NCBI GenBank assembly: GCA_016861205.1
Contig: BOKX01000001.1
Coordinates: 72,539-136,538, forward strand
Length of the DNA stretch: 64,000 nucleotides
Reading direction: 5' to 3'
DNA from: Patescibacteria group bacterium
GTDB lineage: Bacteria > Patescibacteriota > Microgenomatia > UBA1400 > PJMF01
Of this stretch, positions 40,522 to 63,367 are shown piece after piece (position 1 is the first letter of the stretch; each line of letters starts with the position of its first letter). The position numbers and the translations under genes are program-made. The notes below the pieces were generated by a model, which was given only the letters and a program-made list of their open reading frames with translations, made no database searches and was not told where the DNA came from.

Positions 40522-40614
40522 CGAAGATTGGAACTGTCACAAAAGGCAGTTTGGTTGTACAGCGAAAACGTGGTATGGTTTACAGCAAATAAATGATTTT
40601 CGAGAGGATCGCAC

Positions 40615-41169: not shown

Positions 41170-41203
41170 GCACGACCAAAACTGTGTTACGATTCAGCTA
41201 TCT

Positions 41204-42241
41204 ATGGCCCAGTTCCCCATCTCCAGCAACCTCTTTTTTTTGTACGGTTACTCAGGCTCTGGTAAAAGCTCGCTGGGTCGCGAGTTGCAGATTGTGTTCA
41301 AGGATCGTGGCTACCAAGTTTTAAGTTTGTCATCTGGAGATTTGTTCCGATCTGCGATGGCCGATCCAGTTATTGCTGAGCAGATGAAAGCCGGTCAGTT
41401 CATTGAGAGCCTGGATGCTATCCAGCCGCAAATCAAAGCTGCATTTGCTAAGTTCTTTAGGTTATTTGAAGAAACCGACGGCCAGATAGTCATGATCTTA
41501 GATGGCCTAATTCGTCGGTCTGGGTTTACCAATGCAGAAGGAACATGGATTCCATCACAAGTCGACCAAGTAGCTTCGGCCTTAAGGTGGGCAGTGACTG
41601 AGCAGGAACAGGCTATCAGCTCTGCCGCAGCTCGACGTATTATTGAGTACTCAAGACATATTTTAGTTGATTTGACTCCCCAAGATGCTGAGCGACAATT
41701 GAAAGCTAGGACAAATCGAGCTTTGGATGTGGTATATAGCCAGCTCAAACAACGAGAAGCCAGTCATGGTTTGAGCCGAGAGTGGCGAGCTACTTTCGAT
41801 TATATTCACTATTTTTTTGCCAACAACTTGGACTTAGGGGCAGAAGAAAAAGCTGCGGTGGCCGAGTTACAGCGACTCATCGATGAGTATCACATTGAAA
41901 CCGAGTTGCGACTTGAGAATCTTGACCCAGCTGGTCGTCGCAAGTTGCTAAGCAATTTTTTGGGGCGGGACGCTGAAGGCGGTTTGGTGCCTGGACCTGG
42001 TGCTGAGGCTTTAATTAATGATCTGGGTTTTCAATTAACGCCTTGGGGTGAACTAACCACAGCTCGTGAAAATGCTGTGCGGATACCCAATGGTGAAAGT
42101 CGTGGCTATACCTTCGAAGTCTTTCTCGATCACTGCCGTCGGGAAGGTGCTCTCTTAGCACAAGAGACCAGTGAAACACTGCTAACGTTAAGTAGCTTGG
42201 AAGCCGAGCTGGGTGGCGGTTTAAAGGTGGAACGACGATGA
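41204..42241 (+). CDS. P-loop NTPase, kinase-like
   Basis: Walker A FFLYGYSGSGKSSLGREL; Walker B-like MILDGL; overlaps the downstream epimerase start by 4 nt. Confidence 0.5.
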   Translation: MAQFPISSNLFFLYGYSGSGKSSLGRELQIVFKDRGYQVLSLSSGDLFRSAMADPVIAEQMKAGQFIESLDAIQPQIKAAFAKFFRLFEETDGQIVMILDGLIRRSGFTNAEGTWIPSQVDQVASALRWAVTEQEQAISSAAARRIIEYSRHILVDLTPQDAERQLKARTNRALDVVYSQLKQREASHGLSREWRATFDYIHYFFANNLDLGAEEKAAVAELQRLIDEYHIETELRLENLDPAGRRKLLSNFLGRDAEGGLVPGPGAEALINDLGFQLTPWGELTTARENAVRIPNGESRGYTFEVFLDHCRREGALLAQETSETLLTLSSLEAELGGGLKVERR

Positions 42242-43218
42242 GTGACCGAGTTCTCATCACGGGAGTGGCTGGTTTTGTGGGCAGCAACTTGGTGCGCGAA
42301 CTCCTGGCTAACACCAAAGCTGAAGTACATGGCTTGCTGCGGCCAAACACCAACACATGGCGTTTGAAAGATATAAACTCGGAGTCTCGTTTGCATCTGC
42401 ACCAGGTTGATTTACTCGATCGCGATGCCTTAGTGAAGGTTATTTCTCAGATTAAACCCACGGTGATTTACCACTTGGCGGCTCATGGGGCTTATCACTG
42501 GCAAACTGAGTTTGAACCAATTTTTACCACCAACGTGTTTGCAACGTGGTATCTGCATCAAGCATTAGCAGACCATTCCTACCGCGCCTTTATCAATGTG
42601 GGTAGTTCATCCGAGTATGGTTGGTCGACACAGCCGATGCGGGAAACTGATCGACTCAGTCCCAATAGTTTGTATGCCGTTGCCAAGGCTGCTCAGACAC
42701 AACTGGTAGGTTACTTGGGACAAGTGGAGCACAAACCGATACTCACTGTCAGATTGTTTTCGGTTTTCGGGCCGTATGAAGATCGAGGAAAATTGTGGCC
42801 GACAGTTTGGCAGTCTACTCTCACCCACCAGCCGCTCAAGCTGGCTGACCCGCAAGCGGCCCACGACTTTATTTACGTTGACGATGTGACAGCGGCGTTG
42901 AGACAACTGAGTCAGGCTGCTTTTAAGCCAGGTTCAGTTTTTAATTTGGGCACCGGTCGTCAAACAACTCTTGGTGAGGTAGCTGCGTGTGTGGAGCAAG
43001 TCGCTGGCCAAACCTTAGCAGTTGAGTGGTCGACCCATCCAGCACATCGATGGGATACCCATCACTGGGTAGCCAATCCGCGCCAGCTTCAGCGTTTACT
43101 TCACTGGAAACCACGGTATGATCTAACTACTGCTGCCCAAGCGTATTGGCGTTGGTTCCAAACCAACCATCATATCTATGACCACCACTTGCCGGCACCA
43201 GCCTCATCTGATTCCTAA
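42238..43218 (+). CDS. NAD-dependent epimerase/dehydratase (extended SDR)
   Basis: VLITGVAGFVGSNLVREL Rossmann motif; YAVAK (YxxxK). Confidence 0.85.
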   Translation: MSDRVLITGVAGFVGSNLVRELLANTKAEVHGLLRPNTNTWRLKDINSESRLHLHQVDLLDRDALVKVISQIKPTVIYHLAAHGAYHWQTEFEPIFTTNVFATWYLHQALADHSYRAFINVGSSSEYGWSTQPMRETDRLSPNSLYAVAKAAQTQLVGYLGQVEHKPILTVRLFSVFGPYEDRGKLWPTVWQSTLTHQPLKLADPQAAHDFIYVDDVTAALRQLSQAAFKPGSVFNLGTGRQTTLGEVAACVEQVAGQTLAVEWSTHPAHRWDTHHWVANPRQLQRLLHWKPRYDLTTAAQAYWRWFQTNHHIYDHHLPAPASSDS

Positions 43219-44104
43219 TCCTTGTCCATTGTGCGGGAGTACACAGGTTCACCATTCAGAGATTTTGTATCCGGTGAACTTTCGTCCAGAACACCTGACA
43301 GCCACAACTTTTTCAGCCCGCCGGCTACCTGACAAGCTCCACTACCAACTAGTGAAATGTCAGCATGATGGGTTAGTTCGGTCTACCCCAATTTTGCCAG
43401 CCAAGGCTTTAGCGAAGCTTTACGAGCGCAGTCAGGTGACGTATCAACAAGAGGTGCCTTTTTTGCAAGCCACGTACATGCGTGCTTTACAGCCAGTCCT
43501 CACTATCTTGCCCAAATCGGCGCGGATTTTAGAGTTGGGCAGTGGTAATGGGTTTATGCTGGCTGCACTGCGCGAACAAGGATTCCGACAAGTGACTGGT
43601 ATTGAACCCAGCCGATCAGCGATTGCTCAGGCGCCAGCTGCCATCCGGCGACAGCTTATGAATGGTACTTTTGAATCGATCAAACTCAAAGCAAACAGTT
43701 TTGACCTTATTTTTATTTTGCAAACACTGGACCACTTGCCAGACCCCAATGCGGTTTTAGCCAAAGCATACCGACTATTGAAGCGAGGTGGCTACATCGT
43801 GACCTACCATCACAATATCGAAAGTTGGTCACATCGGCTGCTGCGTGAACGTCATCCGATTATCGATATCGAACACACCCATCTTTACTCACCCAAAACA
43901 ACGGCGGCTCTTTTTGAGGCCCAAGGTTTTATTGTCAAAAAAATCTGGTCACCAGCAAATGTACTATCACTCCAACACTTGGCCTGGTTGTTGCCGCTCC
44001 CAAAGTTTTTAAAGAAATGGTACTTAAATCAAAACTGGCCATGGTCGAGACTGTCGCTCACGCTACAATTGGGCAATACGGCGGCTATTGTTCAGAAGCC
44101 TTAG
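43178..44104 (+). CDS. class I SAM-dependent methyltransferase with N-terminal Cys-rich zinc-ribbon-like segment
   Basis: CPLCGS...C..H N-terminus; motif I ILELGSGNGFMLAAL; LKRGGYIV. Confidence 0.7.
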   Translation: MTTTCRHQPHLIPNPCPLCGSTQVHHSEILYPVNFRPEHLTATTFSARRLPDKLHYQLVKCQHDGLVRSTPILPAKALAKLYERSQVTYQQEVPFLQATYMRALQPVLTILPKSARILELGSGNGFMLAALREQGFRQVTGIEPSRSAIAQAPAAIRRQLMNGTFESIKLKANSFDLIFILQTLDHLPDPNAVLAKAYRLLKRGGYIVTYHHNIESWSHRLLRERHPIIDIEHTHLYSPKTTAALFEAQGFIVKKIWSPANVLSLQHLAWLLPLPKFLKKWYLNQNWPWSRLSLTLQLGNTAAIVQKP

Positions 44105-44113
44105 GACACAGAC

Positions 44114-44866
44114 ATGCAATTTTCGCTTACCAATTTAACTGTGACGCAACGTCGTTGGCGACAGCGACTGCTGACAGTTAGCTTTGAACAAAAACTGTCC
44201 CATCTGGGATCTTGCCTTAGTTCATTGGACATCATCGGAGCTGTCTACTCTGTCAAAAAACCACATGACAGTTTTGTGTTATCAAACGGTCACGCTGCAT
44301 TTGCGTGGTATGTGATATTAGAAGACCACAAATTACTAAAATCTGATATCACCACGTTGAGTGTTCATCCTACCCGGGTTGAATGCCCAGCGATTTCAGT
44401 TTCAACTGGTAGTTTGGGTCACGGGTTGCCAATCGCAGTGGGGATGGCTTTAGCTAACCCACGCCAAACAATTTACTGCTTGGTCAGTGACGGTGAGTGT
44501 TATGAAGGTAGCATTTGGGAAGCGGTGAAAGTGATCACTGAACACAATGTGAAAAATCTCCAACTATTGGTGAATGCCAACGGCTGGGCTGCTTATCAAG
44601 CAACCAATAGTGAGCGATTAAAAAAACAGTTCAACGGTTTTGGAATGAAGGTTAAAACCTGCCAGGGTCATGATTGGCGCTCACTGATTCGGCAATTAAA
44701 ACTTGCGAAACCCTCACAATCAAACTCTATTCGTCCAGTACTTTTTTGCCAAACAACAGTTGAACAACTGCCTTTTTTGCATGGTCAGTCTGCTCATTAT
44801 CACGTCATGTCAGCTGCTGACTATGCCACGGCCACAACGTTACTGCTACCGAAAGGTGCCGTATGA
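44114..44866 (+). CDS. transketolase, N-terminal (TPP-binding) subunit
   Basis: SNGHAAFAWY, STGSLGHGLPIAVGMAL, VSDGECYEGSIWEA. Confidence 0.85.
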   Translation: MQFSLTNLTVTQRRWRQRLLTVSFEQKLSHLGSCLSSLDIIGAVYSVKKPHDSFVLSNGHAAFAWYVILEDHKLLKSDITTLSVHPTRVECPAISVSTGSLGHGLPIAVGMALANPRQTIYCLVSDGECYEGSIWEAVKVITEHNVKNLQLLVNANGWAAYQATNSERLKKQFNGFGMKVKTCQGHDWRSLIRQLKLAKPSQSNSIRPVLFCQTTVEQLPFLHGQSAHYHVMSAADYATATTLLLPKGAV

Positions 44867-45345
44867 ACTTGCGAGCTGAGTTTGCCAAACTTACCTTTGA
44901 TGCCATGGCTAGCGATCCCCGGGTTTGGGTGCTTACTGGTGATTTGGGATTTGGTGTGTGGGACAGCGTTCGCGATCGGTACCCGCGGCGGTTTTTAAAT
45001 GTCGGGGCGGCTGAGCAAGCCATGGTCGATATTGGGGTTGGCTTGGCTTTGCAAGGTCAGATTCCGATTATCTACTCAATTACCCCATTCGTGTTGTATC
45101 GACCGTTTGAGTCATTGCGGAACTATCTCCATCATGAGCAAATTCCGGTCAAACTAGTCGGTAGCGACCGAGATCGGGATTATGGCCACAACGGATTTTC
45201 ACACTGGGCCGAAGAAGACCAACACGTGTTAGCTACACTGCCAAACATTGCCACATTTCGGCCCAGCTCAGAACGTCAGTTGCAGACACAGTTCCGGAAG
45301 TTTATAACATCAACCAAATCTGCCTACCTGAACCTATGCCGGTAG
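44863..45345 (+). CDS. transketolase C-terminal-subunit-like protein (pyrimidine-binding domain only, short)
   Basis: FLNVGAAEQAMVDIGVGLALQG; only 160 aa, so it lacks the usual C-terminal TKC domain. Confidence 0.7.
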   Translation: MNLRAEFAKLTFDAMASDPRVWVLTGDLGFGVWDSVRDRYPRRFLNVGAAEQAMVDIGVGLALQGQIPIIYSITPFVLYRPFESLRNYLHHEQIPVKLVGSDRDRDYGHNGFSHWAEEDQHVLATLPNIATFRPSSERQLQTQFRKFITSTKSAYLNLCR

Positions 45346-46307
45346 CGAGGACGTCCAAACCGTTTATTTCTGCAGTTGTTGCTTGTTATGGTGATGAGTT
45401 GGCGATTCCAATTATGTATCGTCGGTTGGTGCGGGTTTTTGAACTTGTTGGAGCTAAGTTTGAGATTATTTTTGTCAACGATGGTAGCCCCGATAACTCA
45501 CGATCAGTTATAGACGCACTGGCAAAAAAAGATCAGCATGTTGTTGGCGTTCATCACAGTCGGAATTTCGGATCGCAGCTGGCATTCAGCAGCGGTTTAG
45601 AACAGGCGCGCGGACAAGCAGTGGTGTTGCTAGATGGAGACTTGCAGGATCCGCCTGAGCTAATACCAACGATGATCGATCGGTGGCAAGCTGGTTATCA
45701 AGTAGTGTATGGCCAACGAGTTGACCGAGTTGCACCCTGGTACATGCGCTGGGCTTACAAACTTTTTTATCGAATTTTTCAACGCTTATCGTATGTGAGA
45801 GTTCCGGTTGATGCTGGTGATTTCTCACTGATGGATAGACAGGTTGTCGAAGTTTTACAACTGTTCCCAGAACGCGACAGATTTTTGCGAGGTTTGCGGG
45901 CATGGGTTGGTTTCCGACAGATAGGTGTCCCCTATGTTCGTTCTGACCGGGTGTTTGGTCACAGCACCAACAACTTGTTAAAAAATATTCAGTGGGCAAG
46001 CAAAGGCATTTTCTCGTTTTCATTTGTGCCACTGCAGCTGATAACTTGGTTGTCGCTGGTTACATTCTGTATTTCACTCGCCGGCATCGTGGTGCAAGTC
46101 GTTTTACGATGGCTATTGCCTGACACACCACACGGGATTACAACCGTGATTGTGGTAGTTATGTTTTTGGGTGCAATACAACTGCTTGGAATTAGTGTGC
46201 TTGGCGAGTATATCGGCCGAATTTTTGAAGAAGTTAAACAACGACCGCGATTCGTGGTGGAGAAAGTGACACGCCATGGGCGTTCGACTCACCGCCCCAA
46301 CCGCTAA
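45336..46307 (+). CDS. GT2 polyprenyl-phosphate sugar transferase (DPM1/ArnC-like)
   Basis: ISAVVACYGDE, IIFVNDGSPD, LDGDLQDPPE (DxD), C-terminal TM helices. Confidence 0.85.
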   Translation: MPVARTSKPFISAVVACYGDELAIPIMYRRLVRVFELVGAKFEIIFVNDGSPDNSRSVIDALAKKDQHVVGVHHSRNFGSQLAFSSGLEQARGQAVVLLDGDLQDPPELIPTMIDRWQAGYQVVYGQRVDRVAPWYMRWAYKLFYRIFQRLSYVRVPVDAGDFSLMDRQVVEVLQLFPERDRFLRGLRAWVGFRQIGVPYVRSDRVFGHSTNNLLKNIQWASKGIFSFSFVPLQLITWLSLVTFCISLAGIVVQVVLRWLLPDTPHGITTVIVVVMFLGAIQLLGISVLGEYIGRIFEEVKQRPRFVVEKVTRHGRSTHRPNR

Positions 46308-48174
46308 ACAGGCCGATACTGGTGAAGTCCAGTCTCGGCTAGCTTGGTTTGTGTCATGGACGCCTCTCAGCATGCTTGTCGTCTATCTGATGGTGCGATG
46401 GAACTTGGGCGTGGATTGGTGGTTAGTTGTTAAGGTTTTGGGTTGGAGTTGGTTCTGGCTACTTGTGCCAGTTCAACTGGCGACGACCAGAGCAAAACGA
46501 GTGCCAGCTGAGCTGATAGCCTTCATGGCTGTGGTGGTGGTGGCAGCAACGGGCTATGTCGGTAATGAGCATTTAAAGCTGTTTGAGTGGGTTATTCCCG
46601 GATGTGGTGTTTTTTCTTGGTTGCTGTCTACCTATTACTGGAGATCCAGGATTGTCCGGAGTGAATGGATAACTCTGCCTTGGTTGGTGTGGCTGAGTAG
46701 CTGGTTCGCGCTCCGTGTTTGGGGTAGCGAGTACTTATCACCCTTATTTCGCGAGAACGTGGCTACGATGGCTGCCCATCCAGACACTCTTTTTCACTTA
46801 GCTATCGCCAACATGCTGAAAACATACGGGGTGGTGACAACAGGGTTGGATGGTTTGGTAGCTCTGCCCTATCACGCAGGCAGCCACTGGTTGCTGGCTG
46901 GTTGGAGCTGGTGGCTGGCTGCCCCAGTTATCGAAACCTACAATGTTTTGTATCCTGTGGTTTGGTTACCCTTGCTACTTTTAGTGAGTTGGTGGCTGAG
47001 TGTCAGGATTGCAGCCACTTGGTCAACCAATCTATCGTCAGTTACAAATTGGCTGAGTTGGTTGGTTCTAATCAGTTGGATTGGATGGGTTCAACCATGG
47101 CCGCTGAGTTGGCAGAACCATTGGCAGTTAGAAACTGTCCTAATGTTTAGTGAGTCATACACCATTGGTTTAGCTGTAACCGGTTTAATTGCCGGCTGGT
47201 GGCTGAGTAGTAGTCGAAAAGACACACATCGTTGGCCTTGGTTAGTGCTCAATCTGGGTGTGTGGCTGTTTGTGGGTTGGATCAAAATTTCATTTTTGTA
47301 CTTTGGTTTAGTACTTAGCTGGTGGTGGCTGTTTCATAGCTGGCGAACCACCAGTAAAAAACAATGGTTTATGGCTGGAGTCTTATCGGCGCTAGCGGTG
47401 GTCGTTTACCGGCTTACAAGTTTACCGGATCATGCAGTGACATGGCAGCCTGGTGCCTTCTGGGTGAGCAAATTGGCAGCCAACTGGCGATTAAGCTGGT
47501 GGCCAGTGGCTCTAGCTGACTGGCTAATAGTGTTGGGTTGGTGGTGGCAGCAGCCACAGCGCTGGCGTTTGCTAAAGACCTGGCCGGCACAAGCTTCGAC
47601 GCTCATTATTGGAGCAGGTTTGTTACCAGCTTTTTTATTACTTATGCCAGGCGGGAATGAAGTGTACTTTTTGGAAGTTCAGCGATGGTGGGCAGTTGCC
47701 CTTTTGGGAGCAGCTTGGTTCAGGCTGAAGTCCAATGGGGTTTTCTTTCGCAACAACAAGACGAAGTCACTAGGCAGGTTGGTCATTGGTGTACTGCTAG
47801 TGGCTGGTTTGACTGTTAACTATCTGTGGGCAACCAAAATTTTGGTAGTACAAGTGAGTACACGTCAGGCCCGCTATCACCAACTTTACGACGACCCACG
47901 TGCTGAGTTTCAGGAAATTATGAGGTGGTTGCAACAGGTTTCAGAGTTGTCACTGAGCCAGAAACAACAGCTGGCCCTCTCGATTTCTCCAACATCGAAG
48001 TATTGGCGCCTAAGTAGCCGATGCGATGTCGTTTCTCTAATTGCCCCAGCGTGGACTGGAGTCCAGCTGGCGGAAGGTCTCCCAAAGTCTGGTTGTTCTC
48101 GTTCGTTATTTGGTCACCGACTTTACCCAAACTACTCGAGTGTGACAGTCACTGATCGGTTGCTGAGCCCATAA
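46276..48174 (+). CDS. large polytopic Trp-rich membrane protein, putative GT-C-type glycosyltransferase/polymerase
   Basis: 632 aa with about 14 or more TM helices. It lies directly downstream of the polyprenyl-P sugar transferase and overlaps its 3' end. Confidence 0.4.
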   Translation: MGVRLTAPTAKQADTGEVQSRLAWFVSWTPLSMLVVYLMVRWNLGVDWWLVVKVLGWSWFWLLVPVQLATTRAKRVPAELIAFMAVVVVAATGYVGNEHLKLFEWVIPGCGVFSWLLSTYYWRSRIVRSEWITLPWLVWLSSWFALRVWGSEYLSPLFRENVATMAAHPDTLFHLAIANMLKTYGVVTTGLDGLVALPYHAGSHWLLAGWSWWLAAPVIETYNVLYPVVWLPLLLLVSWWLSVRIAATWSTNLSSVTNWLSWLVLISWIGWVQPWPLSWQNHWQLETVLMFSESYTIGLAVTGLIAGWWLSSSRKDTHRWPWLVLNLGVWLFVGWIKISFLYFGLVLSWWWLFHSWRTTSKKQWFMAGVLSALAVVVYRLTSLPDHAVTWQPGAFWVSKLAANWRLSWWPVALADWLIVLGWWWQQPQRWRLLKTWPAQASTLIIGAGLLPAFLLLMPGGNEVYFLEVQRWWAVALLGAAWFRLKSNGVFFRNNKTKSLGRLVIGVLLVAGLTVNYLWATKILVVQVSTRQARYHQLYDDPRAEFQEIMRWLQQVSELSLSQKQQLALSISPTSKYWRLSSRCDVVSLIAPAWTGVQLAEGLPKSGCSRSLFGHRLYPNYSSVTVTDRLLSP

Positions 48175-48224
48175 TTATAAATTTAGAACTTGCTTAAACC
48201 CAGATGATTGGGTAGGATGATTCG

Positions 48225-50213
48225 ATGCGCAGATCCTCCTACCCCATACGCATTCTAACTAGCATTTTGGCGGTTGGTCTGTGGCTGTTGCTTGCACCCC
48301 TCTCGAAGGCTTTTGCAGCTACGTACTACGTTTCACCAAGTGGTAATGACAGCAATACTGGAACAACTGAAGCACAGTCCTGGCGAACGATTCAACGGGC
48401 GGGTGATGCTGTTTCTCCTGGTGATACTGTCCTGATCGCTCCGGGAACATATAATGGCAGCTCAGGACAACAGTCAGTTTTGTACCCAAGAACTTCTGGA
48501 ACAGCCTCAGCTCCTATTACCTTTAAGTCGCTCAACAGTACCAGACCAGTGTTGTCTGGTATTAACACGGGCAAAGATGTCATCAACTTGACCGATCGCA
48601 ACTATATTGTCATTGATAATTTACAGTTACAAGATCCTTGTAGTAACTGGTGCCGATGGTTAACTTTGGAGAACGCTAATCACAATACAGTGAATAACAC
48701 TCGATTTGTGATGACACGTGCTTCCACTGGAGTTGACTGGATTGGTATCAACTTTCAGAATGCCACTTACAACAAACTAACCAACTGTCACGTTGATGGT
48801 TGGGGGGTGTACGGTGATCCCTACAACAATGGTGGAGACGCGGTTCAACTCAATGGTGCCAGTCACCATAATCTGATTGAAGGTTGTTTTATTGGTGCAG
48901 CAGGTCACGCCGGTTTGCAGCTGGACGGTGGTGATACTTACTTTAATGTAATTCGTAACAATACCTTTCAGAATCGTCTGGAGAAGGCTTTTGAAACTAC
49001 CCAGCGCCGGGCCGGTCGTTTTGAGTACAACTTGTTCGAAGGTAACACGTGTATTGATTCACGTTACAACTCTGAGTTGCACGGAGGCATGTGTTTACAC
49101 ATCAATGCCAACCGCAACATTATCCGCCGTAACGTCCTGAGAGGTGCGCTCGGTTGGGCAATTGATATGCAGGTGTGGGGCGCAGAAACCTTGAACAACA
49201 TTGGTAACCATGTTTTCCACAACACCATTGTCAACAATGGTATCGATCAGTCTGTATACCATGTTCAAGCAACCACAGGTATTGCTATTGAAGATTTTGG
49301 TTACACCGCGGCTCCGCATCGCGATCACCGAATCAAAAATAATATTATTTACGATAACAAACCCCAAACCAACTTCAGCCCACCTCGAAACGTGCAGATC
49401 TTGCTCGGCTTCGATGGAAGCCGATCTGGTGCTCCATTCAGCGGCGTCCAAGTGGCGGGTAACTTACTCCATGGTAACAGTGACACCAATGAGACCATCA
49501 CTGTTTACGGTATGGCTGAAGGTACAGCCCAGTCATACAATCAAAGCCACCCAAATAATTTCTGGGGTAACATCTCGCAAGCTCCGCAATTTGTGGCCTA
49601 CGACCAGGGCGTAGCAAACAATCCGCTTGATGGCACGTTTGATCTAAGACTGCAGGCTGGATCACCAGGCATTGATCAAGGCGTTAGTTTGACACAAACC
49701 ACTGCAGCTGGATCTGGAACGGTGGTTCCTGTGCAGGATGCTGGCTATTTCCAAGATGGCTTTGACGGCATTATTGCTCCAGATCAGATTCGCGTCGGCA
49801 ACAATTTGGTAACGATTTCAGATATTGATTATGGCAACAACCGTATCACCGTTGACCGCTCAATTTCTTGGGCTGCTGGTGATGGTGTTAACTTACCCTT
49901 TTCAGGGAATGCTCCAGATATAGGGGCCTATGAGGCTAACGGTAGTGGAGGCCCTCAAACAAGCAGTACACCGAGCCCAGTAGCTAGTGTTGTGCCTTCC
50001 CCATCGCCTTCCGCTACGCCAAACACGCAGGCCTGCCGCGCGGCCGATATTAATCAAGACAACACTGTTAATCAGACAGACCGGACCTTGCTTATTAATG
50101 ATTTCTTTAAGCGTTTGCCGGTCACACCTCGAGCTGACATTAATGCTGACGGAATTGTCGACATTACAGATTATGGTCTGCTCGTCCAGTCATACCAACA
50201 AACCTGCCAATAA
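48225..50213 (+). CDS. secreted right-handed parallel beta-helix protein with Pro/Ser linker and C-terminal dockerin module
   Basis: Signal peptide. The N-terminus resembles pectate-lyase-fold/DUF1565 proteins (YYVSPSGNDSNTGT...). The C-terminus has two Ca-binding dockerin-type repeats (DINQDNTVNQTDRTLLINDFF, ADINADGIVDITDYGLLVQSY). Confidence 0.65.
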   Translation: MRRSSYPIRILTSILAVGLWLLLAPLSKAFAATYYVSPSGNDSNTGTTEAQSWRTIQRAGDAVSPGDTVLIAPGTYNGSSGQQSVLYPRTSGTASAPITFKSLNSTRPVLSGINTGKDVINLTDRNYIVIDNLQLQDPCSNWCRWLTLENANHNTVNNTRFVMTRASTGVDWIGINFQNATYNKLTNCHVDGWGVYGDPYNNGGDAVQLNGASHHNLIEGCFIGAAGHAGLQLDGGDTYFNVIRNNTFQNRLEKAFETTQRRAGRFEYNLFEGNTCIDSRYNSELHGGMCLHINANRNIIRRNVLRGALGWAIDMQVWGAETLNNIGNHVFHNTIVNNGIDQSVYHVQATTGIAIEDFGYTAAPHRDHRIKNNIIYDNKPQTNFSPPRNVQILLGFDGSRSGAPFSGVQVAGNLLHGNSDTNETITVYGMAEGTAQSYNQSHPNNFWGNISQAPQFVAYDQGVANNPLDGTFDLRLQAGSPGIDQGVSLTQTTAAGSGTVVPVQDAGYFQDGFDGIIAPDQIRVGNNLVTISDIDYGNNRITVDRSISWAAGDGVNLPFSGNAPDIGAYEANGSGGPQTSSTPSPVASVVPSPSPSATPNTQACRAADINQDNTVNQTDRTLLINDFFKRLPVTPRADINADGIVDITDYGLLVQSYQQTCQ

Positions 50214-50233
50214 ATAACAATAGAAACCTATTT

Positions 50234-51262
50234 ATGACCGATACAAATCCTTGGCAACCTACACCTCATGTTGATTATGAACCCAACATTACAGTCGATC
50301 CCAAACCCGGCTTGAGACGTTTGTGGCCGGTGGTGGGGGTAGTAGTGGTTTCGTTAGTGGCAACAGGGATTATCAGTTTTATGCAGCTGGCGAACAAATC
50401 TGAGCCTGACGGCCAGGTAGCTGCTGCTAGCAATGCAGGGACAGCTACGTTGCAGCTGCAACCTGCCAGTCAAAGCTACACAGCTGGACAAGCAGTCTCT
50501 GTGGATATCGTGGCTAATTACGGACTGTCGACGATTGACGGAATGCAGCTCTATGCCAACTTGAGCGGAGCTGTGCCGAGTGATTTACAACTGACACTGA
50601 CCCCACCAGCAGGTTTTGAGGTGGCCAGTAAAGAAGTTGCTTTGAGTGGTTCCAGTCCCCAGTTTAAGTTTGCTTTAGTTTCTCAGAATCCGACAACTGG
50701 CGTAGCAGGTCAAAACCAACCAGTTGTGGTTGGGTCGCTGACGTTTACTGCTCCGACCAGCGGTTCACTGCAAGTTGCCTTTGATAGCAGCTTATCAAAA
50801 TTAATGCAACACAGTAGTAACACCGATATCCTGCGGACGCCAACCAATGGCCAGTTCAGCTTTGTGGCGCCGGCAGTCACCCCAACACCTGTCGCCACTC
50901 CAGTTTTACCGACCCCAACTATAATTGCCACGGCTAAGCCAACGCCAAGTATCATTCCTACTCCGGTGCCTTCCCCATCACCCAGTCCCAGCCCTTCACC
51001 GACGTCTGGAATGACAGTATTACTGGCGCGTTGGCGTGAGTGGCCATGGCGATGGAATCAGCTTAATGTGCAAGTGAAAGCCAACTTTGCACCCCCTACC
51101 ACCATTGAGGTAGTTGGTTTTGGCAAGTTATCGTACAACAAACGAACGAAGATATATCAGAAGGTTTTCTACACCAATCAAAAGCCGACACAGATTGTGA
51201 TCAAGGCAAGTAATGGTGATCAGATTACTGTCCCAGTCGAGATTATTAAGTTTGGCAAATAG
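50234..51262 (+). CDS. N-terminally membrane-anchored protein with cohesin-like beta-sandwich domain and Pro/Thr/Ser linker
   Basis: TM anchor at residues 28-50; the domain QAVSVDIVANYGLSTIDGMQLYANLSGAVP resembles a cohesin; TPTPVATPVLPTPT...SPSPSPSPSP linker. Confidence 0.4.
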   Translation: MTDTNPWQPTPHVDYEPNITVDPKPGLRRLWPVVGVVVVSLVATGIISFMQLANKSEPDGQVAAASNAGTATLQLQPASQSYTAGQAVSVDIVANYGLSTIDGMQLYANLSGAVPSDLQLTLTPPAGFEVASKEVALSGSSPQFKFALVSQNPTTGVAGQNQPVVVGSLTFTAPTSGSLQVAFDSSLSKLMQHSSNTDILRTPTNGQFSFVAPAVTPTPVATPVLPTPTIIATAKPTPSIIPTPVPSPSPSPSPSPTSGMTVLLARWREWPWRWNQLNVQVKANFAPPTTIEVVGFGKLSYNKRTKIYQKVFYTNQKPTQIVIKASNGDQITVPVEIIKFGK

Positions 51263-51285
51263 TTGAAATTGCCTGCTCAAAGTCT

Positions 51286-52530
51286 ATGGTTTCACGGATC
51301 AGTGCCGAAGGCGAGTCATGTTTTCATCAAAGTACTGTTGGCACGGTGCTTCTCGAACTTGGTTTGGCTGGTCAGTTCCCAAATTGGTTGAATGTTCCAC
51401 TAGTTCTTGAGTCAGTTGATCATGGTGACAGAACTGAGTATGTGGCAACAGTTCTCAGAACACTTGACTCAAAGAGTTTGTATGACTTTTTAAGGGCGAC
51501 GACCAACAACCGTTTTGACCCGGGAGTGGTCGATGTACGCTCAGATTGGGAAATGCCAGATAGAGCTCATGGTCGCCCTGGCTCAGGAGTTGAGTACTTC
51601 CGAAGACTGCTTCACCTTCACGAGGCAATGGGGACAAGTTGGTTGGCTTTCGAGACTGTTCGGCGTGAGTTTATTACCGCTATCGAGCCACCACTTGAGA
51701 CACAAATTCGAACTACCTTGCCCTGCCCGTTTTTGATTGAGCCACAAATAGCAGCTGATTTGAAGAGCAAGTTATATCGACATGGTAAGGCAACCAACCA
51801 ACTATTTGCAGAGTTACTTCGCGAAACTACTCGAGCTAATCTTCAGGTGATCTTAGCGAATTCTCGAGTTCAACATGAATTGTTGCCACATGAACGAAAA
51901 ATGGATGCAACCGAGTTGCAGCGGCAAATTCTGGGTAGGATTCGCCACTCACAATGGTACAGCCAGCGTTTTTTTGACTCAGAACTTTGGTCGGCGTTGT
52001 TACGGCGCTATCGGGAGCAGTTTTTCGAAGCTACTGAGGTTCAACTGTTGACCGGTGAGAAGGTGACAGCGTATCAGATGCGAGCTCAAGATAGTAGCAA
52101 CCTTAATCTCAGACTTCATCAAAATGGTCGGTGGTATGACTTGGTTCTCGAGCATGATCGCTTGCTCTACCGGACAAACCAAGATGGTGCAACGGTAAGT
52201 TTGGTGCCTAGTATTCACTGGACTAAAGTTGAAAGTTCAGTGGCCCGTCACACGCGAGAGCTACATGTGAGTAGCTTGCTGGGAAAAAGCGCAGAGACTG
52301 TGGCTGGCGTGAGCATCAATCGCAACTCACTGATGGGTATCTTATTGGTCGCTTTATTTTCTCCTGAGGAACGCCAATTGTGGCCTACCAAAATGGGTTT
52401 GCCAGGTGGTAACTATGAGCAAGCAATTGGACCAGGACAAGCTCCTGTTATGGCTCACCTTCGTGCTACACAACTCAGTGAATCGGCTATCTTGCCGGCC
52501 ATGGAAGCTTTGCTATCACAGGAAGGTTAG
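51286..52530 (+). CDS. hypothetical protein
   Basis: 414 aa with no motif; last gene of the plus-strand block. Confidence 0.35.
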   Translation: MVSRISAEGESCFHQSTVGTVLLELGLAGQFPNWLNVPLVLESVDHGDRTEYVATVLRTLDSKSLYDFLRATTNNRFDPGVVDVRSDWEMPDRAHGRPGSGVEYFRRLLHLHEAMGTSWLAFETVRREFITAIEPPLETQIRTTLPCPFLIEPQIAADLKSKLYRHGKATNQLFAELLRETTRANLQVILANSRVQHELLPHERKMDATELQRQILGRIRHSQWYSQRFFDSELWSALLRRYREQFFEATEVQLLTGEKVTAYQMRAQDSSNLNLRLHQNGRWYDLVLEHDRLLYRTNQDGATVSLVPSIHWTKVESSVARHTRELHVSSLLGKSAETVAGVSINRNSLMGILLVALFSPEERQLWPTKMGLPGGNYEQAIGPGQAPVMAHLRATQLSESAILPAMEALLSQEG

Positions 52531-53054
52531 TTTTCAGTTGCAGCAGGCGAAGCTGAAGGAATGGGGCTCTCTTCAGTCGTGTCAGCCCGATTGTTACCCT
52601 CGGTAGCCGGTTCAGCCGTCCCATTTTCGTTATCAAGGACTAATGGACCAGAATTGACAATGATATTTCGCTCAGGACTGTAGACAAAAGCTTTTTGTGC
52701 CTGTGGATAGATAACGAGTTTGTCACCGTTCTGGGCTTGGGCATAAAAGGCTGATTGAGTGGCTAAAAAGGCAGAATCAATGATTGTAGCAACCACTGGC
52801 TCTTCTTCTGGAAGCAACACCAATTTGCCTAGCCGTTGCACAACGGCTTGAATTTCACGCTTAGCCAGTTCCTCTTGGGCACCAGGCTGGGTTAACTGCC
52901 TAAGTTGCTGACGAGTTTGGTAGTACATGAACCCAGTTGCAGCTAAGCCTCCAAGTAAAAGCAGAATCAAGAAAGCCAAAAAGATAGTAAACTTACCACC
53001 TTTTTTCTTGGTTTTTGGACTTACTGTGGGAGTTGATTCGGTTTGTTCATTCAT
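52527..53054 (-). CDS. membrane-anchored hypothetical protein
   Basis: Basic N-terminus, single TM (FTIFLAFLILLLLGGLAATGF), Ser/Thr/Pro-rich C-terminus. Confidence 0.4.
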   Translation of the reverse strand: MNEQTESTPTVSPKTKKKGGKFTIFLAFLILLLLGGLAATGFMYYQTRQQLRQLTQPGAQEELAKREIQAVVQRLGKLVLLPEEEPVVATIIDSAFLATQSAFYAQAQNGDKLVIYPQAQKAFVYSPERNIIVNSGPLVLDNENGTAEPATEGNNRADTTEESPIPSASPAATEN

Positions 53055-53093: not shown

Positions 53094-56000
53094 TCAAGGT
53101 TCAAGCGGAATGCTTTCGGTGGTGCTTGGGGTTGGGGTAGGTACAGGGCTTACTTCCTGGCTTGGGGTTGGGGTAGGAGTTGGATCGATGGTTGGGCTCG
53201 GTGTCGGGCTGCTGGTAGGTGCCAGGCTAGCACTTGGGTTGGGTGTGGGCGAAGTTACTGAGGTTTCTAACTCAATCGAGCTACCCGCTACCGATTCAAC
53301 GACTCGTGGATCAGTAACTGCCACCGCCACCCAGTTAATCGTAACGTCCTCAGTGAGTGGCTCAGCTATTTGGATAGTGAAACTGTCTTGGGTGGTTTGG
53401 GTGACTCGCAGGCCAGAAACAGCTTTTTGGGCTGTTACCGTGACGACTGGTGGGGTGATAAAGCTGTGTTCGAAGGGCACCGTTACAGTCGTAGCACCGG
53501 CCTTAATTACTGCATAACCAGCTGCGTCTTTATCACTTAGATAGAGACGGCCACGGACGGTGACATCAGCCAAAAACTCAGCTGGCTTCTCAAAAATGGT
53601 TTTGCCAATGATGGTCAATACATCGCTGCCCCAGGTCATGAATGGATTGAGCTCTGCCCGGGCCACCCACTCTGCGTTATCGAGAGCTAATTCATGAGTT
53701 GATTGGTCAGCATAGAAATCGGTTAAGTCTTCACCGTTGGTGAGGTTTTTAATACGAACTAACTTTTCACCAGAAAGTTTTTCTACCACGCGCAGCGCTT
53801 TGGTCATGTCAGCATTGATGGCTAAGCCGTTGCGCTCTGAGTAAAAAGCCCAGGCAAGATCTTCACTGCGCTGGTTATCGAGCAGACTAAAGTTGTGCGG
53901 TGAGAGGGTGGTGACGTTCCCCGCTTCGTCCCGGACTTGGAGCTCGTGACTACCGGCGACATCCACTGCAAACAGTTGAATACCATCAGTGATACTAGTA
54001 GTAGGTGCTGTTGAGCTAGCAATGGCGAAGACTCTACTGGCATTAGTTCCAAATGCGAGTGTCGGTAAGAGCCCGACATTCTGAGCGCTATCAATCCGCA
54101 AAGCGGTGACGGTATTGGTGGCAAAGCCCATTGAGTCAGTATCGTGGTGGTAGGCGATCACGCCCATATCCTCACTATCTTCGTCTGAGAAGCTCAACAA
54201 TTGGTGGGCAGTATTATTGCTAACCCACTTCAAACGGTTAGTATCGAAGTGTTCCAGGACCAACGTATCGTTGCCGTCCAGGGTGTAGGCCCGATTCGTG
54301 GCGGTCCGGCGAATGTGGGTAAAGCCCTCAGGGTTGGAAGTGTTGATACCAATGCGCCCGCTTTCCCGCAGTACAAACCGTGTTGTACCTGAGGATGACG
54401 CAGTCAAAATATCATTGGTTCCAGTCTCATTGAGTACAGCCAATGCTTTGCCGGTCTGAGTCCCTGTTAGTTGTAGTCGATGGATGGGAGATGTGGTTCC
54501 CATGCCGATGTTTCCTCGATCTTGGACATATAGGCCTGAGTTGCCACCTGAGTCAGTAATATTCAGTGCTCCACCCGTGGTAGTGCCATTGCCACTCACC
54601 TGTAACCGAGCGCCAGGGACGTATGTTCCAATCCCGATATTACCAGCATTGTTGGGATTGAATAGGATGTCATACCCACTGCCGCCAGCGGCAGTCCGAC
54701 CGCCCAAAATATAGCCGTACTCACCTATCGCCTGACCACTGATGCGGATTCCACCAGAGTTATAGCCAAGGCCGGTGTCGACACCCAAGTTTTGTGACAA
54801 ATAGACCCGCGATACAAAATCCCACCGCACATCGATGGTGCCAGCACTGTGTCGAACGTGGCCGTCATTGTTGGGACCAACGTGAAGGGAGGCTTGAGGG
54901 CTGGTTTCGCCGATACCCAAGCGACCAGTCCCGGTGAAGGTGAACAGGTCACTGCTTCCGTAGAGTCTTAAATCATCACCTGTGTTGTTGTACCACTGGA
55001 AGTTGGTGCCTGAACCATCGCGAGAGTCCATCTGCACACCTCCATTTGCACCAGTGACACGGAGCAGCTCGGCCACCCGAGCAGTACCATTAACATCCAG
55101 TTTGTAACTGGTGGAGGTAGTTCCAACTCCCACGTTGCCACCGCTTGGGTTAAGAAGAATTGGTGTGTATTGATTATTATCGCCGCTCTGAATGATAGCG
55201 GCTGTGTTATTGCCAGTGTTCTTATTGAGGATGAGATACCCTCCGTGCGTAGTGTAACTGGTGCCCTTCAAAGCCAGAGCGGCGCCGTTATCGATATTGT
55301 CGGCTGTAGCCAATATATCGAGCATAAACCCTGGAGTACCAAGACCCAGGCCCATGCGGCCGCTATTGGCTAGGACCAGTTTGGTGGTGCCGCTGGCGCT
55401 GGCGGTGAGAATATCACCGGCATTCGTTTGATTGATAATAGCCGCAGCATTGGAGCCATATTTTCCATCTACATGCAAAGCAGCGGTAGGAGCAGAGTTA
55501 TTGATACCCATTAAACCTGAAGCCCCAATATCTAACCAAGCAGTTACGATGTTGTTGGAATTATCTTGAATGGTGAGTGGTGTACCTGCAAAGTTTTCGC
55601 GATCAAAAATAGCCCATTTTTGAACGTTAGCTGCCTTAAATGTAATTCCGTTTCCTGCCCCAGCGCCACCATCCATATACAGCCCGGTCCCCGTATTATT
55701 GCTTTTCACATAGATATCAGCAACAGAGGCGTCCCAGATGTAGATATCCGAAGTTGGAGCAGTGGTACCAATACCTAGCTGGCCGGAGTTGGAAAGCACC
55801 ATTTTGGTGGTACCACTGGCGCTAGCACTTAAAATATTCCCGCTCAAAGTCTGGTTAATTGTCAAAGCATCATTAGCACCGTAGCCGCCGTTGATGTGGA
55901 GGAGAGCGGTGGGTGTGGTGGTGCCGATGCCAACTAAGCCACTGGCATTAATTAATAATTGTGTTGTAGAACTTGTTCTCAATGCTAATGAGGTGTTTTC

Positions 56001-63278: not shown

Positions 63279-63367
63279 ACAAACACACACCATCTCGCTC
63301 CTCTTTTCCCAAGTAAGGTCAAGAAGCAATGGCGTACGCAAATGGTCACTGTTACCAATAGTACGTG

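What the first reader, a model, noticed from the sequence alone, without database searches (positions are those of the whole stretch)
48225..51262. Adjacent dockerin-bearing beta-helix enzyme and cohesin-like membrane-anchored protein, just upstream of the fibre genes
The 662-aa secreted parallel-beta-helix protein ends with two canonical Ca-binding dockerin repeats (DINQDNTVNQTD…, DINADGIVDITD…). The next gene encodes an N-terminally anchored protein whose extracellular region resembles a cohesin beta-sandwich followed by a PT/SP linker. This looks like a minimal cohesin-dockerin surface-display pair in what appears to be a small-genome organism. It sits between a glycan-synthesis cluster and the giant fibre genes, so the whole 41-64 kb region reads as one cell-surface-building locus.
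Basis: partly seen in the sequence, partly recalled or inferred. Interest (0 to 1): 0.65.

Follow-up and report, generated by a model that had tools for sequence, protein, structure and literature searches.

The report
Dockerin enzyme beside divergent cohesin-like anchor
A tiny-genome (candidate phyla radiation) bacterium encodes, side by side, a secreted polysaccharide-lyase-like enzyme ending in a calcium-binding "dockerin" plug and a membrane-anchored protein whose outer domain has the fold of the matching "cohesin" socket, so the pair probably tethers the enzyme to the cell surface, although binding has not been shown.

Summary
ORF 48225-50213 (662 aa) has a signal peptide and a PL6/PL9-like right-handed beta-helix. 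It also has a Pro/Thr/Ser linker and a canonical two-repeat dockerin (Pfam Dockerin_1, 29.9 bits against a cutoff of 22.9).

ORF 50234-51262 (342 aa) has an N-terminal membrane anchor, a 150-aa beta-sandwich, a PT linker and a small C-terminal domain. No Pfam, NCBIfam or PDB-sequence profile recognises the beta-sandwich. An AlphaFold2 model (pLDDT 93.7) nevertheless gives solved cohesins as its 39 best Foldseek hits (E down to 1e-7).

The domain defines an unannotated family of at least 160 clusters. It almost always sits just after an N-terminal anchor. A third of sampled members (49/150) carry a dockerin, 48 at the extreme C-terminus, and five carry the same Cys-flanked subtype as the enzyme.

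The gene pair stays adjacent in one relative at 68%/52% identity with different flanks. Three other relatives of the enzyme lack the adjacent partner. Direct binding is untested.

The "single 41-64 kb surface locus" reading is not supported, because the fibre genes vary between strains and the glycan cluster is absent in the relative.

Verdict: a plausible minimal non-cellulosomal cohesin-dockerin display pair, and a new variant of a known kind.

The parts
48225..50213 (+). P1: gene for a 662-aa secreted beta-helix (polysaccharide-lyase-like) protein with a C-terminal dockerin
   Evidence: ORF. Pfam Dockerin_1, Beta_helix and DUF1565. Precomputed Pel9A-like_beta_helix. Homologues are 'right-handed parallel beta-helix repeat' proteins.
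48225..48317 (+). P1 signal peptide (res 1-31, predicted cleavage AFA|ATYYV)
   Evidence: Read from the sequence. The conserved mature N-terminus ATYYV is nearly invariant in the homologue alignment A4. The cleavage site is inferred.
48318..49934 (+). P1 right-handed parallel beta-helix region plus a conserved C-terminal cap (res 32-570)
   Evidence: A 40-sequence family profile hits these solved structures: a parallel beta-helix protein 9rx2 (6.6e-19), PL6 alginate lyases 7o7a/6kfn (~1e-16), PL9 rhamnogalacturonan lyase 5olq (1.2e-15), PL9 pectate lyase Pel9A 1ru4 (2.3e-15) and chondroitinase B 1ofl (3e-11). NCBIfam PelN gives a partial hit at 8.5e-14.
49935..50030 (+). P1 Pro/Thr/Ser-rich linker (res 571-602)
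   Evidence: Sequence ANGSGGPQTSSTPSPVASVVPSPSPSATPNTQ.
50031..50210 (+). P1 dockerin module (res 603-662). Ca-binding loops are at res 608-619 (nt 50046-50081) and res 638-649 (nt 50136-50171). Cys604 and Cys661 flank the module.
   Evidence: Pfam Dockerin_1 29.9 bits, above the 22.9 cutoff. Alignment to PDB dockerins across both repeats. Motif positions. The same Cys-flanked subtype is kept in orthologues P0152-P0155. Sub-threshold NCBIfam GC-type dockerin hit.
50234..51262 (+). P2: gene for a 342-aa N-terminally anchored surface protein with a cohesin-fold domain
   Evidence: ORF. The identical protein occurs in at least 10 metagenome contigs, and in every contig examined that contains the upstream region it lies directly downstream of P1.
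50321..50389 (+). P2 signal-anchor transmembrane helix (res 30-52, preceded by R28-R29; predicted N-in/C-out)
   Evidence: Read from the sequence. 132 of 150 family members have an uncharged hydrophobic stretch in their first 100 residues. In homologue P0030 the N-terminal segment is modelled as a long helix, res 3-37. Topology is inferred.
50396..50878 (+). P2 cohesin-like beta-sandwich (modelled segment res 55-215; ordered core res ~68-213)
   Evidence: AF2 pLDDT 93.7, pTM 0.85, 11 strands. Foldseek against PDB ranks cohesins at positions 1-39, best E 1.1e-7. 160 representative homologues at E<=1e-3. No Pfam, NCBIfam or PDB-sequence hit.
50879..51010 (+). P2 Pro/Thr/Ser linker (res ~216-259)
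   Evidence: Sequence VTPTPVATPVLPTPTIIATAKPTPSIIPTPVPSPSPSPSPSPTSG.
51011..51259 (+). P2 C-terminal 83-aa domain of unknown function
   Evidence: Shared with family members P0002, P0124 and P0132. It is 65% identical in the L009 orthologue. No family hit.

Best explanation
P1 and P2 form a minimal, non-cellulosomal cohesin-dockerin surface-display pair in a Patescibacteria (CPR) bacterium.

Proposed mechanism:
1. P1 is exported by Sec.
2. Its beta-helix is a polysaccharide-lyase-like or glycanase-like catalytic or binding module.
3. Its C-terminal dockerin folds around two Ca2+ ions.
4. P2 stays in the membrane through an uncleaved N-terminal signal anchor and exposes a divergent cohesin-fold domain.
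5. The dockerin plugs into that domain, so the enzyme is held on the cell's own surface, where it could act on host or environmental glycans.

The two genes are probably co-transcribed.

What is shown: domain identities, the fold, the gene arrangement, and the family-wide association of the cohesin-like domain with dockerins.

What is inferred: topology, Ca2+ binding, the P1-P2 interaction itself, and the enzyme's substrate.
For: Dockerin:
- Pfam match above the gathering score, with canonical Ca-loop residues in both repeats.

Cohesin fold:
- High-confidence model whose 39 best PDB matches are cohesins of types I, II and III.
- An independent model of homologue P0030 gives the same result.

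Sequence bridge:
- Family member P0096 has a second domain that passes Pfam Cohesin (25.1 bits against a cutoff of 24.1) and is weakly similar to the P2 domain.

Association with dockerins:
- 29 of 111 family members hit Pfam Dockerin_1.
- 49 of 150 hit a dockerin HMM, 48 of them at the extreme C-terminus.
- Five members (P0025, P0030, P0061, P0077, P0148) carry the same Cys-flanked dockerin subtype as P1.

Gene linkage:
- A 20-nt gap with no terminator between the genes.
- The pair is adjacent in all strain-level contigs examined.
- It is also adjacent in L009, where P1 is 68% and P2 52% identical, the gap is 12 nt, and the flanking genes differ.

Cis-model:
- In the natural cohesin-like plus dockerin protein P0030, the dockerin is confidently folded (pLDDT 93-95, two helices).
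- The whole-chain pTM is 0.73 despite a 40-residue disordered linker. This fits a defined cohesin-dockerin arrangement but is only indirect evidence.
Against: - No experiment or multimer model shows binding.
- No cohesin HMM recognises P2, and hhalign to the one Pfam-positive relative is weak (probability 3.8%, E 0.011).
- Three P1 orthologues with intact dockerins (P0153, P0154, P0155) have no cohesin-like gene within ~6 kb.
- Other cohesin-like family genes have no dockerin gene nearby: L024, and L026 with five tandem paralogues.
- The cohesin-like domain sits right at the membrane, the reverse of classical anchoring scaffoldins.
- The rest of the 1.15-Mb genome could not be searched for other cohesin-like or dockerin genes.
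Confidence: 0.55

Rival explanations
1. Both modules are real but they are not each other's partners. P2 belongs to a large family of membrane-anchored CPR surface proteins. Its cohesin-fold domain would bind something else (glycan, host surface, another family member's dockerin) or be purely structural. The P1 dockerin would bind another cohesin-like paralogue elsewhere in the genome, or serve only as a Ca-stabilised module. The adjacency would then reflect co-expression of surface proteins or chance in a variable region.
For: - Adjacency is lost in three of four diverged P1 orthologues that keep the dockerin.
- Cohesin-like genes occur alone or as five tandem paralogues with no dockerin gene nearby.
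- No cohesin HMM match for P2.
- The Foldseek list also includes non-dockerin-binding look-alikes lower down: CLIPPER adhesin domain 9ifr, YcnI and BslA.
- The region is strain-variable.
Against: - The pair is kept with a 12-20 nt spacing across 68%/52% protein divergence while all neighbours changed.
- A third of the family carries a dockerin in the same chain, including P1's own subtype. That is hard to explain unless the domain belongs to the dockerin system.
- It is the only cohesin-like domain and the only dockerin in 64 kb.
Confidence: 0.3
2. Network version. The cohesin-like family and its Cys-flanked dockerins form a self-assembling surface lattice or daisy chain. Each anchored protein's dockerin would bind a neighbour's membrane-proximal cohesin-like domain, or its own in cis as an autoinhibited state. 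P1 would be only one of several clients that compete for these sockets, and P2 would be a dockerin-less terminal acceptor.
For: - 48 of 150 family members combine an N-terminal cohesin-like domain with an extreme C-terminal dockerin.
- Tandem paralogue clusters exist.
- The P0030 whole-chain pTM of 0.73 is compatible with a cis-docked dockerin.
- The same dockerin subtype occurs on enzymes (P1, P0152-P0155) and on family members.
Against: - There is no structural or interaction data.
- pTM alone cannot separate docking of the dockerin from packing of the N-terminal helix.
- The number of family members in this genome is unknown.
- This reading overlaps with the best explanation rather than excluding it.
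Confidence: 0.12
3. Artefact: the cohesin-like ORF or the dockerin motif is a chance feature of non-coding or mis-framed sequence.
For: None found. Considered only because P2 has no HMM hit.
Against: - The identical P2 protein occurs on at least 10 independent contigs.
- It has 160 homologous cluster representatives.
- The AF2 model reaches pLDDT 93.7.
- The dockerin passes Pfam's curated threshold.
Confidence: 0.01

Closest known systems
Type I cohesin-dockerin pairs of cell-surface anchoring proteins in Clostridia (e.g. Acetivibrio thermocellus OlpA/OlpC with enzyme dockerins, PDB 3ul4 and 4dh2; Clostridium acetobutylicum CaCohA2-Doc0917, PDB 6kgf)
   Same: - A single cohesin on a cell-bound protein receives a dockerin-bearing enzyme directly, with no multi-cohesin scaffoldin.
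- These cohesins are the best structural matches to P2.
- The P1 dockerin aligns with type I dockerins and has canonical Ca loops.
   Different: - P2 shares only 9-17% sequence identity with them and is invisible to the Cohesin HMM.
- Anchoring is by an N-terminal membrane helix directly before the cohesin-like domain, not by C-terminal SLH or sortase motifs.
- The client is a PL6/PL9-like beta-helix, not a cellulase.
- The organism is a CPR bacterium with a ~1.15-Mb genome.
- No CBM and no multi-enzyme complex are evident.
Non-cellulosomal cohesin/dockerin modules (Clostridium perfringens cohesin-like module, PDB 2jh2; from my own knowledge, the survey of such modules across the three domains of life by Peer et al. 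2009 and the Archaeoglobus fulgidus pair)
   Same: Cohesin-fold and dockerin modules are used outside cellulose degradation to assemble extracellular proteins. 2jh2 is among the Foldseek hits (rank 38).
   Different: - Those modules are recognisable by the existing sequence models.
- The P2 family is not, and it has a characteristic position next to the N-terminal anchor.
- One third of its members add a C-terminal dockerin.
Dockerin-domain protein SEML1_0315 of the saccharibacterium Southlakia epibionticum (Wang et al. 2023, PMC10633639)
   Same: A dockerin-bearing envelope protein in a Patescibacteria epibiont. It was reported as essential and speculated to target host glycans.
   Different: - No cohesin partner is mentioned in that paper's text or in its held supplementary tables.
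- SEML1_0315 was not compared with P1 here, so any relationship is untested.
Polysaccharide lyase families PL9 (Pel9A 1ru4, rhamnogalacturonan lyase 5olq) and PL6 (alginate lyases 7o7a/6kfn, chondroitinase B 1ofl)
   Same: The P1 family profile matches these right-handed beta-helix lyases at E 1e-11 to 1e-16. Pel9A-like Pfam and NCBIfam PelN give partial hits.
   Different: - The matches are partial and spread over several lyase and glycosidase families, including GH120 3vst and GH136 6kqs N-terminal caps.
- Catalytic residues were not checked.
- No CAZy family can be assigned.

Membership tests
Dockerin type I (Pfam PF00404) | Match to the family HMM above the curated gathering score | tested here: met
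   29.9 bits against a cutoff of 22.9, E 6.4e-7. Only one repeat is aligned by Pfam, but PDB dockerins align over both repeats.
Dockerin type I (Pfam PF00404) | Two tandem ~22-residue segments, each a 12-residue EF-hand-like Ca loop with D/N at positions 1, 3, 5, 9 and D at 12, followed by a helix | tested here: met
   DINQDNTVNQTD plus RTLLINDFF, and DINADGIVDITD plus YGLLVQSY, spaced 30 residues apart. The pattern is conserved in orthologues.
Dockerin type I (Pfam PF00404) | Two-helix F-hand fold in three dimensions, with bound Ca2+ | tested here: inconclusive
   P1 itself was not modelled. The same dockerin subtype in P0030 is modelled at pLDDT 93-95 with helices 242-250 and 272-280. Ca2+ occupancy cannot be assessed with these tools.
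Dockerin type I (Pfam PF00404) | Binds a cohesin | not testable with these tools
This needs AF-Multimer or biochemistry.
Cohesin (Pfam PF00963) | Match to the family HMM or to sequences of solved cohesins | tested here: not met
   - No Pfam hit at E<=1.
- No cohesin among PDB sequences with a single-sequence or 40-sequence profile.
- Only 2 of 111 family members hit PF00963. For the one examined, P0096, the hit lies in an extra second domain.
- hhalign to that domain gives probability 3.8%.
Cohesin (Pfam PF00963) | Flattened beta-sandwich (jelly-roll) fold superimposable on solved cohesins | tested here: met
   - Model pLDDT 93.7.
- Foldseek ranks 1-39 are cohesins of types I, II and III, E 1e-7 to 1e-4, TM up to 0.69 on the target.
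- Repeated with homologue P0030.
Cohesin (Pfam PF00963) | Occurs together with dockerins (same proteome or same polypeptide) | tested here: met
   - The gene is adjacent to a dockerin gene.
- 49 of 150 family representatives carry a dockerin, 48 at the extreme C-terminus.
Cohesin (Pfam PF00963) | Binds a dockerin through the 8-3-6-5 sheet | not testable with these tools
   No coordinates, PAE or multimer prediction were available. The pTM of 0.73 for the natural cis protein is only suggestive.
Cellulosome / scaffoldin system | Scaffoldin with several cohesins, a CBM, and many dockerin-bearing plant-cell-wall enzymes | tested here: not met
   - P2 has one cohesin-like domain and no CBM.
- Only one dockerin lies in the 64 kb window.
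Polysaccharide lyase beta-helix (PL9 / PL6) | Right-handed parallel beta-helix related to solved PL9/PL6 enzymes | tested here: met
   - Profile hits to 1ru4, 5olq, 7o7a, 6kfn and 1ofl at E 1e-11 to 1e-16.
- Pfam Beta_helix 25.5 bits against a cutoff of 25.9, and Pel9A-like precomputed.
Polysaccharide lyase beta-helix (PL9 / PL6) | Catalytic Ca2+-binding acidic cluster and Lys/Arg Bronsted base in the right positions | not tested
Invariant Asn/Asp/Arg columns exist in A4 but were not mapped onto a lyase active site.

The most novel reading that the evidence does not exclude
The P2 domain may represent a Patescibacteria-wide cohesin-like family that has not been annotated. Together with a lineage-specific Cys-flanked dockerin, it would form a general surface-assembly system of ultrasmall epibiotic bacteria.

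In this reading, membrane-anchored sockets hold lytic enzymes and adhesins, and a third of the sockets carry their own plug, allowing chains or lattices.

It would supply the missing partner for dockerin proteins such as the one reported as essential for epibiotic growth in Saccharibacteria.
Probability: 0.3. Interest if true: 0.7.

Novelty: new variant of a known kind. Interest (0 to 1): 0.5.

Why it matters
CPR/Patescibacteria live attached to host cells, and how they build and arm their surface is largely unknown. A dockerin-domain protein has been reported as essential in a cultivated saccharibacterium (PMC10633639), with no cohesin partner described there.

This work points to a large family that current HMMs miss, has a cohesin fold, is membrane-anchored, and is frequently fused to dockerins. 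One member sits directly beside a dockerin-bearing lyase-like enzyme. That gives a concrete, testable candidate for how these organisms tether enzymes, possibly ones that degrade host walls or EPS, to their own surface.

It also extends the sequence range of the cohesin fold, which is useful for annotation and for orthogonal protein-assembly parts. If the two proteins do not bind, the finding reduces to an ordinary pair of surface-protein genes.

Tried and rejected
Searches on P2 that found nothing useful:
- Pfam and NCBIfam gave no relevant hit.
- phmmer and a 40-sequence profile against PDB sequences gave only chance hits to granzyme, antibody light chains and fibronectin.
- The word-indexed homologue search with full-length P2 found only one relative, probably because the PT linker dominates the words. 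The exhaustive HMMER search on the domain alone was needed.
- hhalign of the family against the Pfam-positive second domain of P0096 was weak: probability 3.8%, 43 columns.

Attempts to locate the source genome:
- Genome-collection scans with P2 and then P1 did not recover the source genome or close relatives.
- The NCBI 1.15-Mb contig could not be fetched. No whole-genome census was therefore possible, and taxonomy rests on enolase neighbours.

Other checks:
- The promoter/terminator scan was no better than shuffles.
- A type IV pilin reading of the P2 family (N-terminal helix plus beta domain) was considered and rejected. There is no G|F-x-x-x-E class III signal, and the conserved motif lies after the hydrophobic helix, not before it.
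- A sortase substrate was rejected because P2 has no LPXTG.
- Checked whether the window comes from Patescibacterium danicum. It does not: that genome has 35% GC and is under 1 Mb, against 48% GC and 1.15 Mb here.


Full report
**1. What is in the sequence**

They lie in a run of closely spaced, co-directional genes from about 41.2 to 52.5 kb. The P1-P2 gap is 20 nt with no terminator-like hairpin. The promoter/terminator scan of the region is no better than shuffled sequence, so it says nothing further.

**2. P1**

- The N-terminus is a typical Sec signal peptide (…LAPLSKAFA|ATYYV). The ATYYV start of the mature protein is nearly invariant among homologues.
- Pfam gives Dockerin_1 (29.9 bits, cutoff 22.9), DUF1565 (24.3, cutoff 20.3) and Beta_helix just under threshold (25.5, cutoff 25.9). 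The precomputed annotation adds Pel9A-like_beta_helix.
- A profile of 40 homologues matches several solved right-handed beta-helix enzymes:
  - a parallel beta-helix protein (9rx2, 6.6e-19);
  - PL6 alginate lyases (7o7a and 6kfn, ~1e-16);
  - PL9 rhamnogalacturonan lyase (5olq) and pectate lyase Pel9A (1ru4, 2e-15);
  - chondroitinase B.
- NCBIfam PelN matches the N-terminal third.
- P1 is therefore a secreted protein resembling a polysaccharide lyase or glycanase. Its substrate and catalytic residues were not established.
- After a Pro/Thr/Ser linker, the last 60 residues contain two F-hand loops, DINQDNTVNQTD (608-619) and DINADGIVDITD (638-649). Both have the canonical ligand pattern at positions 1, 3, 5, 9 and 12, and each is followed by a short amphipathic helix.
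- Solved type I dockerins (1ohz_B, 2y3n_B, 1daq) align over both repeats.
- The module is bracketed by Cys604 and Cys661. Orthologues P0152-P0155 keep this feature. It is echoed by a sub-threshold hit to NCBIfam 'GC-type dockerin'.

**3. P2**

- Residues 30-52 are a hydrophobic helix preceded by Arg-Arg, which predicts an uncleaved N-in/C-out signal anchor.
- A beta-rich domain follows (about res 66-213), then a 45-residue PT/SP linker and an 83-residue C-terminal domain.
- No Pfam family hits at E<=1 and NCBIfam gives nothing relevant. Neither the single sequence nor a 40-sequence profile finds a cohesin among PDB sequences.
- The structural half succeeds. AlphaFold2 on the family alignment A3 gives an all-beta model with mean pLDDT 93.7 and pTM 0.85.
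- Foldseek against the PDB returns cohesins at ranks 1-39. These include CaCohA2 6kgf (E 1.1e-7), OlpC 4dh2, OlpA 3ul4 (TM 0.69 on the target), CipA 1aoh, R. flavefaciens type III cohesins and type II cohesins. Sequence identity is 8-17%.
- A second, independent model of family member P0030 gives the same hit list.

**4. The family behind P2**

- An exhaustive HMMER search of 1.8 billion cluster representatives with the domain alone finds 160 relatives at E<=1e-3 and 71 at E<=1e-10.
- In nearly all of them the domain starts 20-100 residues from the N-terminus, just after a hydrophobic segment.
- A conserved juxtamembrane motif Q-x-x-R-x-(K/R)-A-(A/S) precedes the domain.
- None of the sampled members carries a source name.
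- Scanning 111 full-length members against Pfam gives 29 with Dockerin_1 and only 2 with Cohesin. The rest have assorted Ig, PA14, fn3 or CBM domains, or nothing.
- With a dockerin HMM built from the clear cases, 49 of 150 members have a dockerin, and 48 of those are at the extreme C-terminus.
- Five members (P0025, P0030, P0061, P0077, P0148) carry the same Cys-flanked subtype as P1, with nearly identical second repeats (DINGDGIVDxTDYSxLV).
- One member, P0096, has the architecture anchor, P2-like domain, Pfam-positive Cohesin (25.1 bits, cutoff 24.1), then dockerin. Its Pfam-positive domain is weakly similar to P2's domain. A profile comparison is too weak to count as proof of homology.
- Such frequent co-occurrence of a domain with dockerins in the same chain is the hallmark of cohesins in scaffoldins. 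This is my main argument that the fold match reflects function and is not just a shared beta-sandwich shape.

**5. Is the pair a pair?**

Evidence for a functional link:
- The two genes are adjacent in every strain-level contig examined that contains the upstream region.
- They are also adjacent in a clearly diverged relative, L009 from GCA_964421945.1. There P1 is 68% identical, P2 is 52% identical (cohesin-like domain 49%, dockerin 61%), and the gap is 12 nt. All surrounding genes differ.
- In the window they are the only dockerin and the only cohesin-like domain.
- In P0030, a natural protein with both modules, AF2 folds the dockerin confidently (pLDDT 93-95, two helices). The whole-chain pTM is 0.73 although 40 linker residues are disordered. 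That is the value expected if the cohesin-like domain and the dockerin have a defined mutual arrangement. Without PAE or coordinates I cannot exclude that the N-terminal helix contributes instead.

Evidence against a strict link:
- P1 orthologues P0153, P0154 and P0155 (64-66% identical, dockerins intact) have no cohesin-like gene within about 6 kb.
- P0156 (53% identical) lacks both the dockerin and such a neighbour.
- Conversely, the cohesin-like genes at L024 and L026 have no dockerin gene nearby. L026 carries five tandem paralogues around secE-nusG-rplKAJL.

I put the probability that P1 docks on P2 at about 0.55. I give about 0.3 to 'both modules real but partners differ', and about 0.12 to a broader self-assembling network in which P1 is one client.

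**6. The wider locus claim**

- The upstream genes do look like a glycan-synthesis set: an NAD-dependent epimerase/dehydratase, a methyltransferase, a split transketolase, a GT2 and a Trp-rich polytopic membrane protein.
- The two downstream giant ORFs are paralogous G/T/S/N-rich proteins with no family match.
- These parts do not travel together:
  - A strain 98.8% identical over 40235-52836 loses homology at 52836 and continues with ATP synthase epsilon and cytidylate kinase, so it has no fibre genes there.
  - Two other strains diverge inside the first fibre gene at 54588.
  - L009 keeps the pair without the glycan cluster or the fibres.
- The fibre proteins carry no dockerin.
- The region is better described as a variable surface-protein neighbourhood than as one locus.

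**7. Organism**

- The identical P1 and P2 lie on an NCBI contig of 1,149,156 bp.
- GC content is about 48%.
- The closest named enolases (about 66-69% identity) are from Patescibacteria group, Woesebacteria and Pacebacteria MAGs.
- Relatives' contigs carry typical CPR content.
- The class within Patescibacteria is unresolved. The genome-collection scans did not recover the source.

**8. Comparison with what is known**

- In mechanism, the closest analogues are single-cohesin anchoring proteins that receive an enzyme dockerin directly (OlpA and OlpC of A. thermocellus, CaCohA2). Non-cellulosomal cohesin-dockerin modules such as the C. perfringens cohesin-like module are also close.
- Differences:
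  - extreme sequence divergence, invisible to PF00963;
  - anchoring by an N-terminal membrane helix immediately before the domain;
  - a lyase-like beta-helix as the client;
  - frequent cis combination with a Cys-flanked dockerin;
  - a CPR host.
- In the papers I could search, dockerins in Patescibacteria are mentioned once. This is the essential SEML1_0315 in Southlakia (PMC10633639). No cohesin appears in that paper's text or in its held supplements. Other searches found nothing specific.
- The library is incomplete, so I do not claim that this family has never been described.

**9. Verdict**

- Novelty: a new variant of a known kind, namely a divergent cohesin-fold family with its own architecture, next to a canonical dockerin enzyme.
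- Interest is about 0.5. Specialists would find it useful and moderately surprising, and it is directly testable, but the key interaction is still inferred.

Noticed in passing
window 53094-58433 (-) and 58605-63341 (-); also 63418-63975 (-): There are two giant paralogous ORFs of 1779 and 1578 aa. They are 79% identical over the first ~443 residues and 41% over the rest. They are G/T/S/N-rich with PT-rich C-terminal tails. Neither has a Pfam or NCBIfam match or a dockerin motif. The next ORF has a weak H-type lectin hit (E 0.002). The fibre genes vary between strains: L003 (98.8% identical up to 52836) lacks them at this site, and L001 and L002 diverge at 54588.
   Followed up: partly
L026 6610-8001, 7986-9137, 9177-10637, 15457-16071, 16290-17138 (GCA_964406075.1, CAYOQI010000004.1): Five paralogues of the cohesin-like family lie within 17 kb. 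They flank the secE-nusG-rplK-rplA-rplJ-rplL cluster, and no dockerin motif is nearby. The family can therefore expand in tandem independently of dockerin genes.
   Followed up: partly
window 50390-50440 (P2 res ~53-68) and alignment A3 columns 7-20: A family-wide conserved motif, Q-x-x-R-x-(K/R)-A-(A/S), lies between the N-terminal hydrophobic helix and the cohesin-like domain. It could be a processing or recognition site, or part of a juxtamembrane helix. It is weakly preserved in P2 itself (…GQVAAAS…).
   Followed up: no
window 46276-48174 (+): A 632-aa polytopic membrane protein with 9.5% tryptophan and no Pfam or NCBIfam match. It overlaps the end of a GT2 glycosyltransferase gene. It may be a GT-C-like or polymerase-like component of the glycan cluster.
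   Followed up: no
window 51286-52530 (+): A 414-aa ORF with no signal peptide and no family hit starts 23 nt after P2. It is present with the pair in all strain-level contigs long enough to include that position, but absent after the pair in the diverged relative L009.
   Followed up: partly
L006 6001-7956 and 8028-10037 (GCA_025993785.1, JAMQHK010000008.1): Two tandem beta-helix genes that both end in the Cys-flanked dockerin (P0155 and a 669-aa paralogue). They sit next to ATP synthase epsilon, with no cohesin-like gene within 6 kb.
   Followed up: partly
window 44114-44866 (+) and 44863-45345 (+): A split transketolase-like pair (TPP-binding N-terminal part and pyrimidine-binding part) lies inside the sugar-modification cluster. 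It sits between a methyltransferase and a GT2.
   Followed up: no
window 5738-7981 (-) and 28343-30853 (-): Two large proteins match PEP-utilising enzyme / PEP synthase models only in part and far below cutoff. They are unusual multidomain dikinase-like proteins in a reduced genome.
   Followed up: no
window 50031-50210 (P1 res 603-662): The dockerin gives a sub-threshold match over the full length of NCBIfam NF041540 'GC-type dockerin domain' (18.2 bits, cutoff 29). The conserved flanking cysteines suggest a disulfide clasp joining the two ends of the module.
   Followed up: partly
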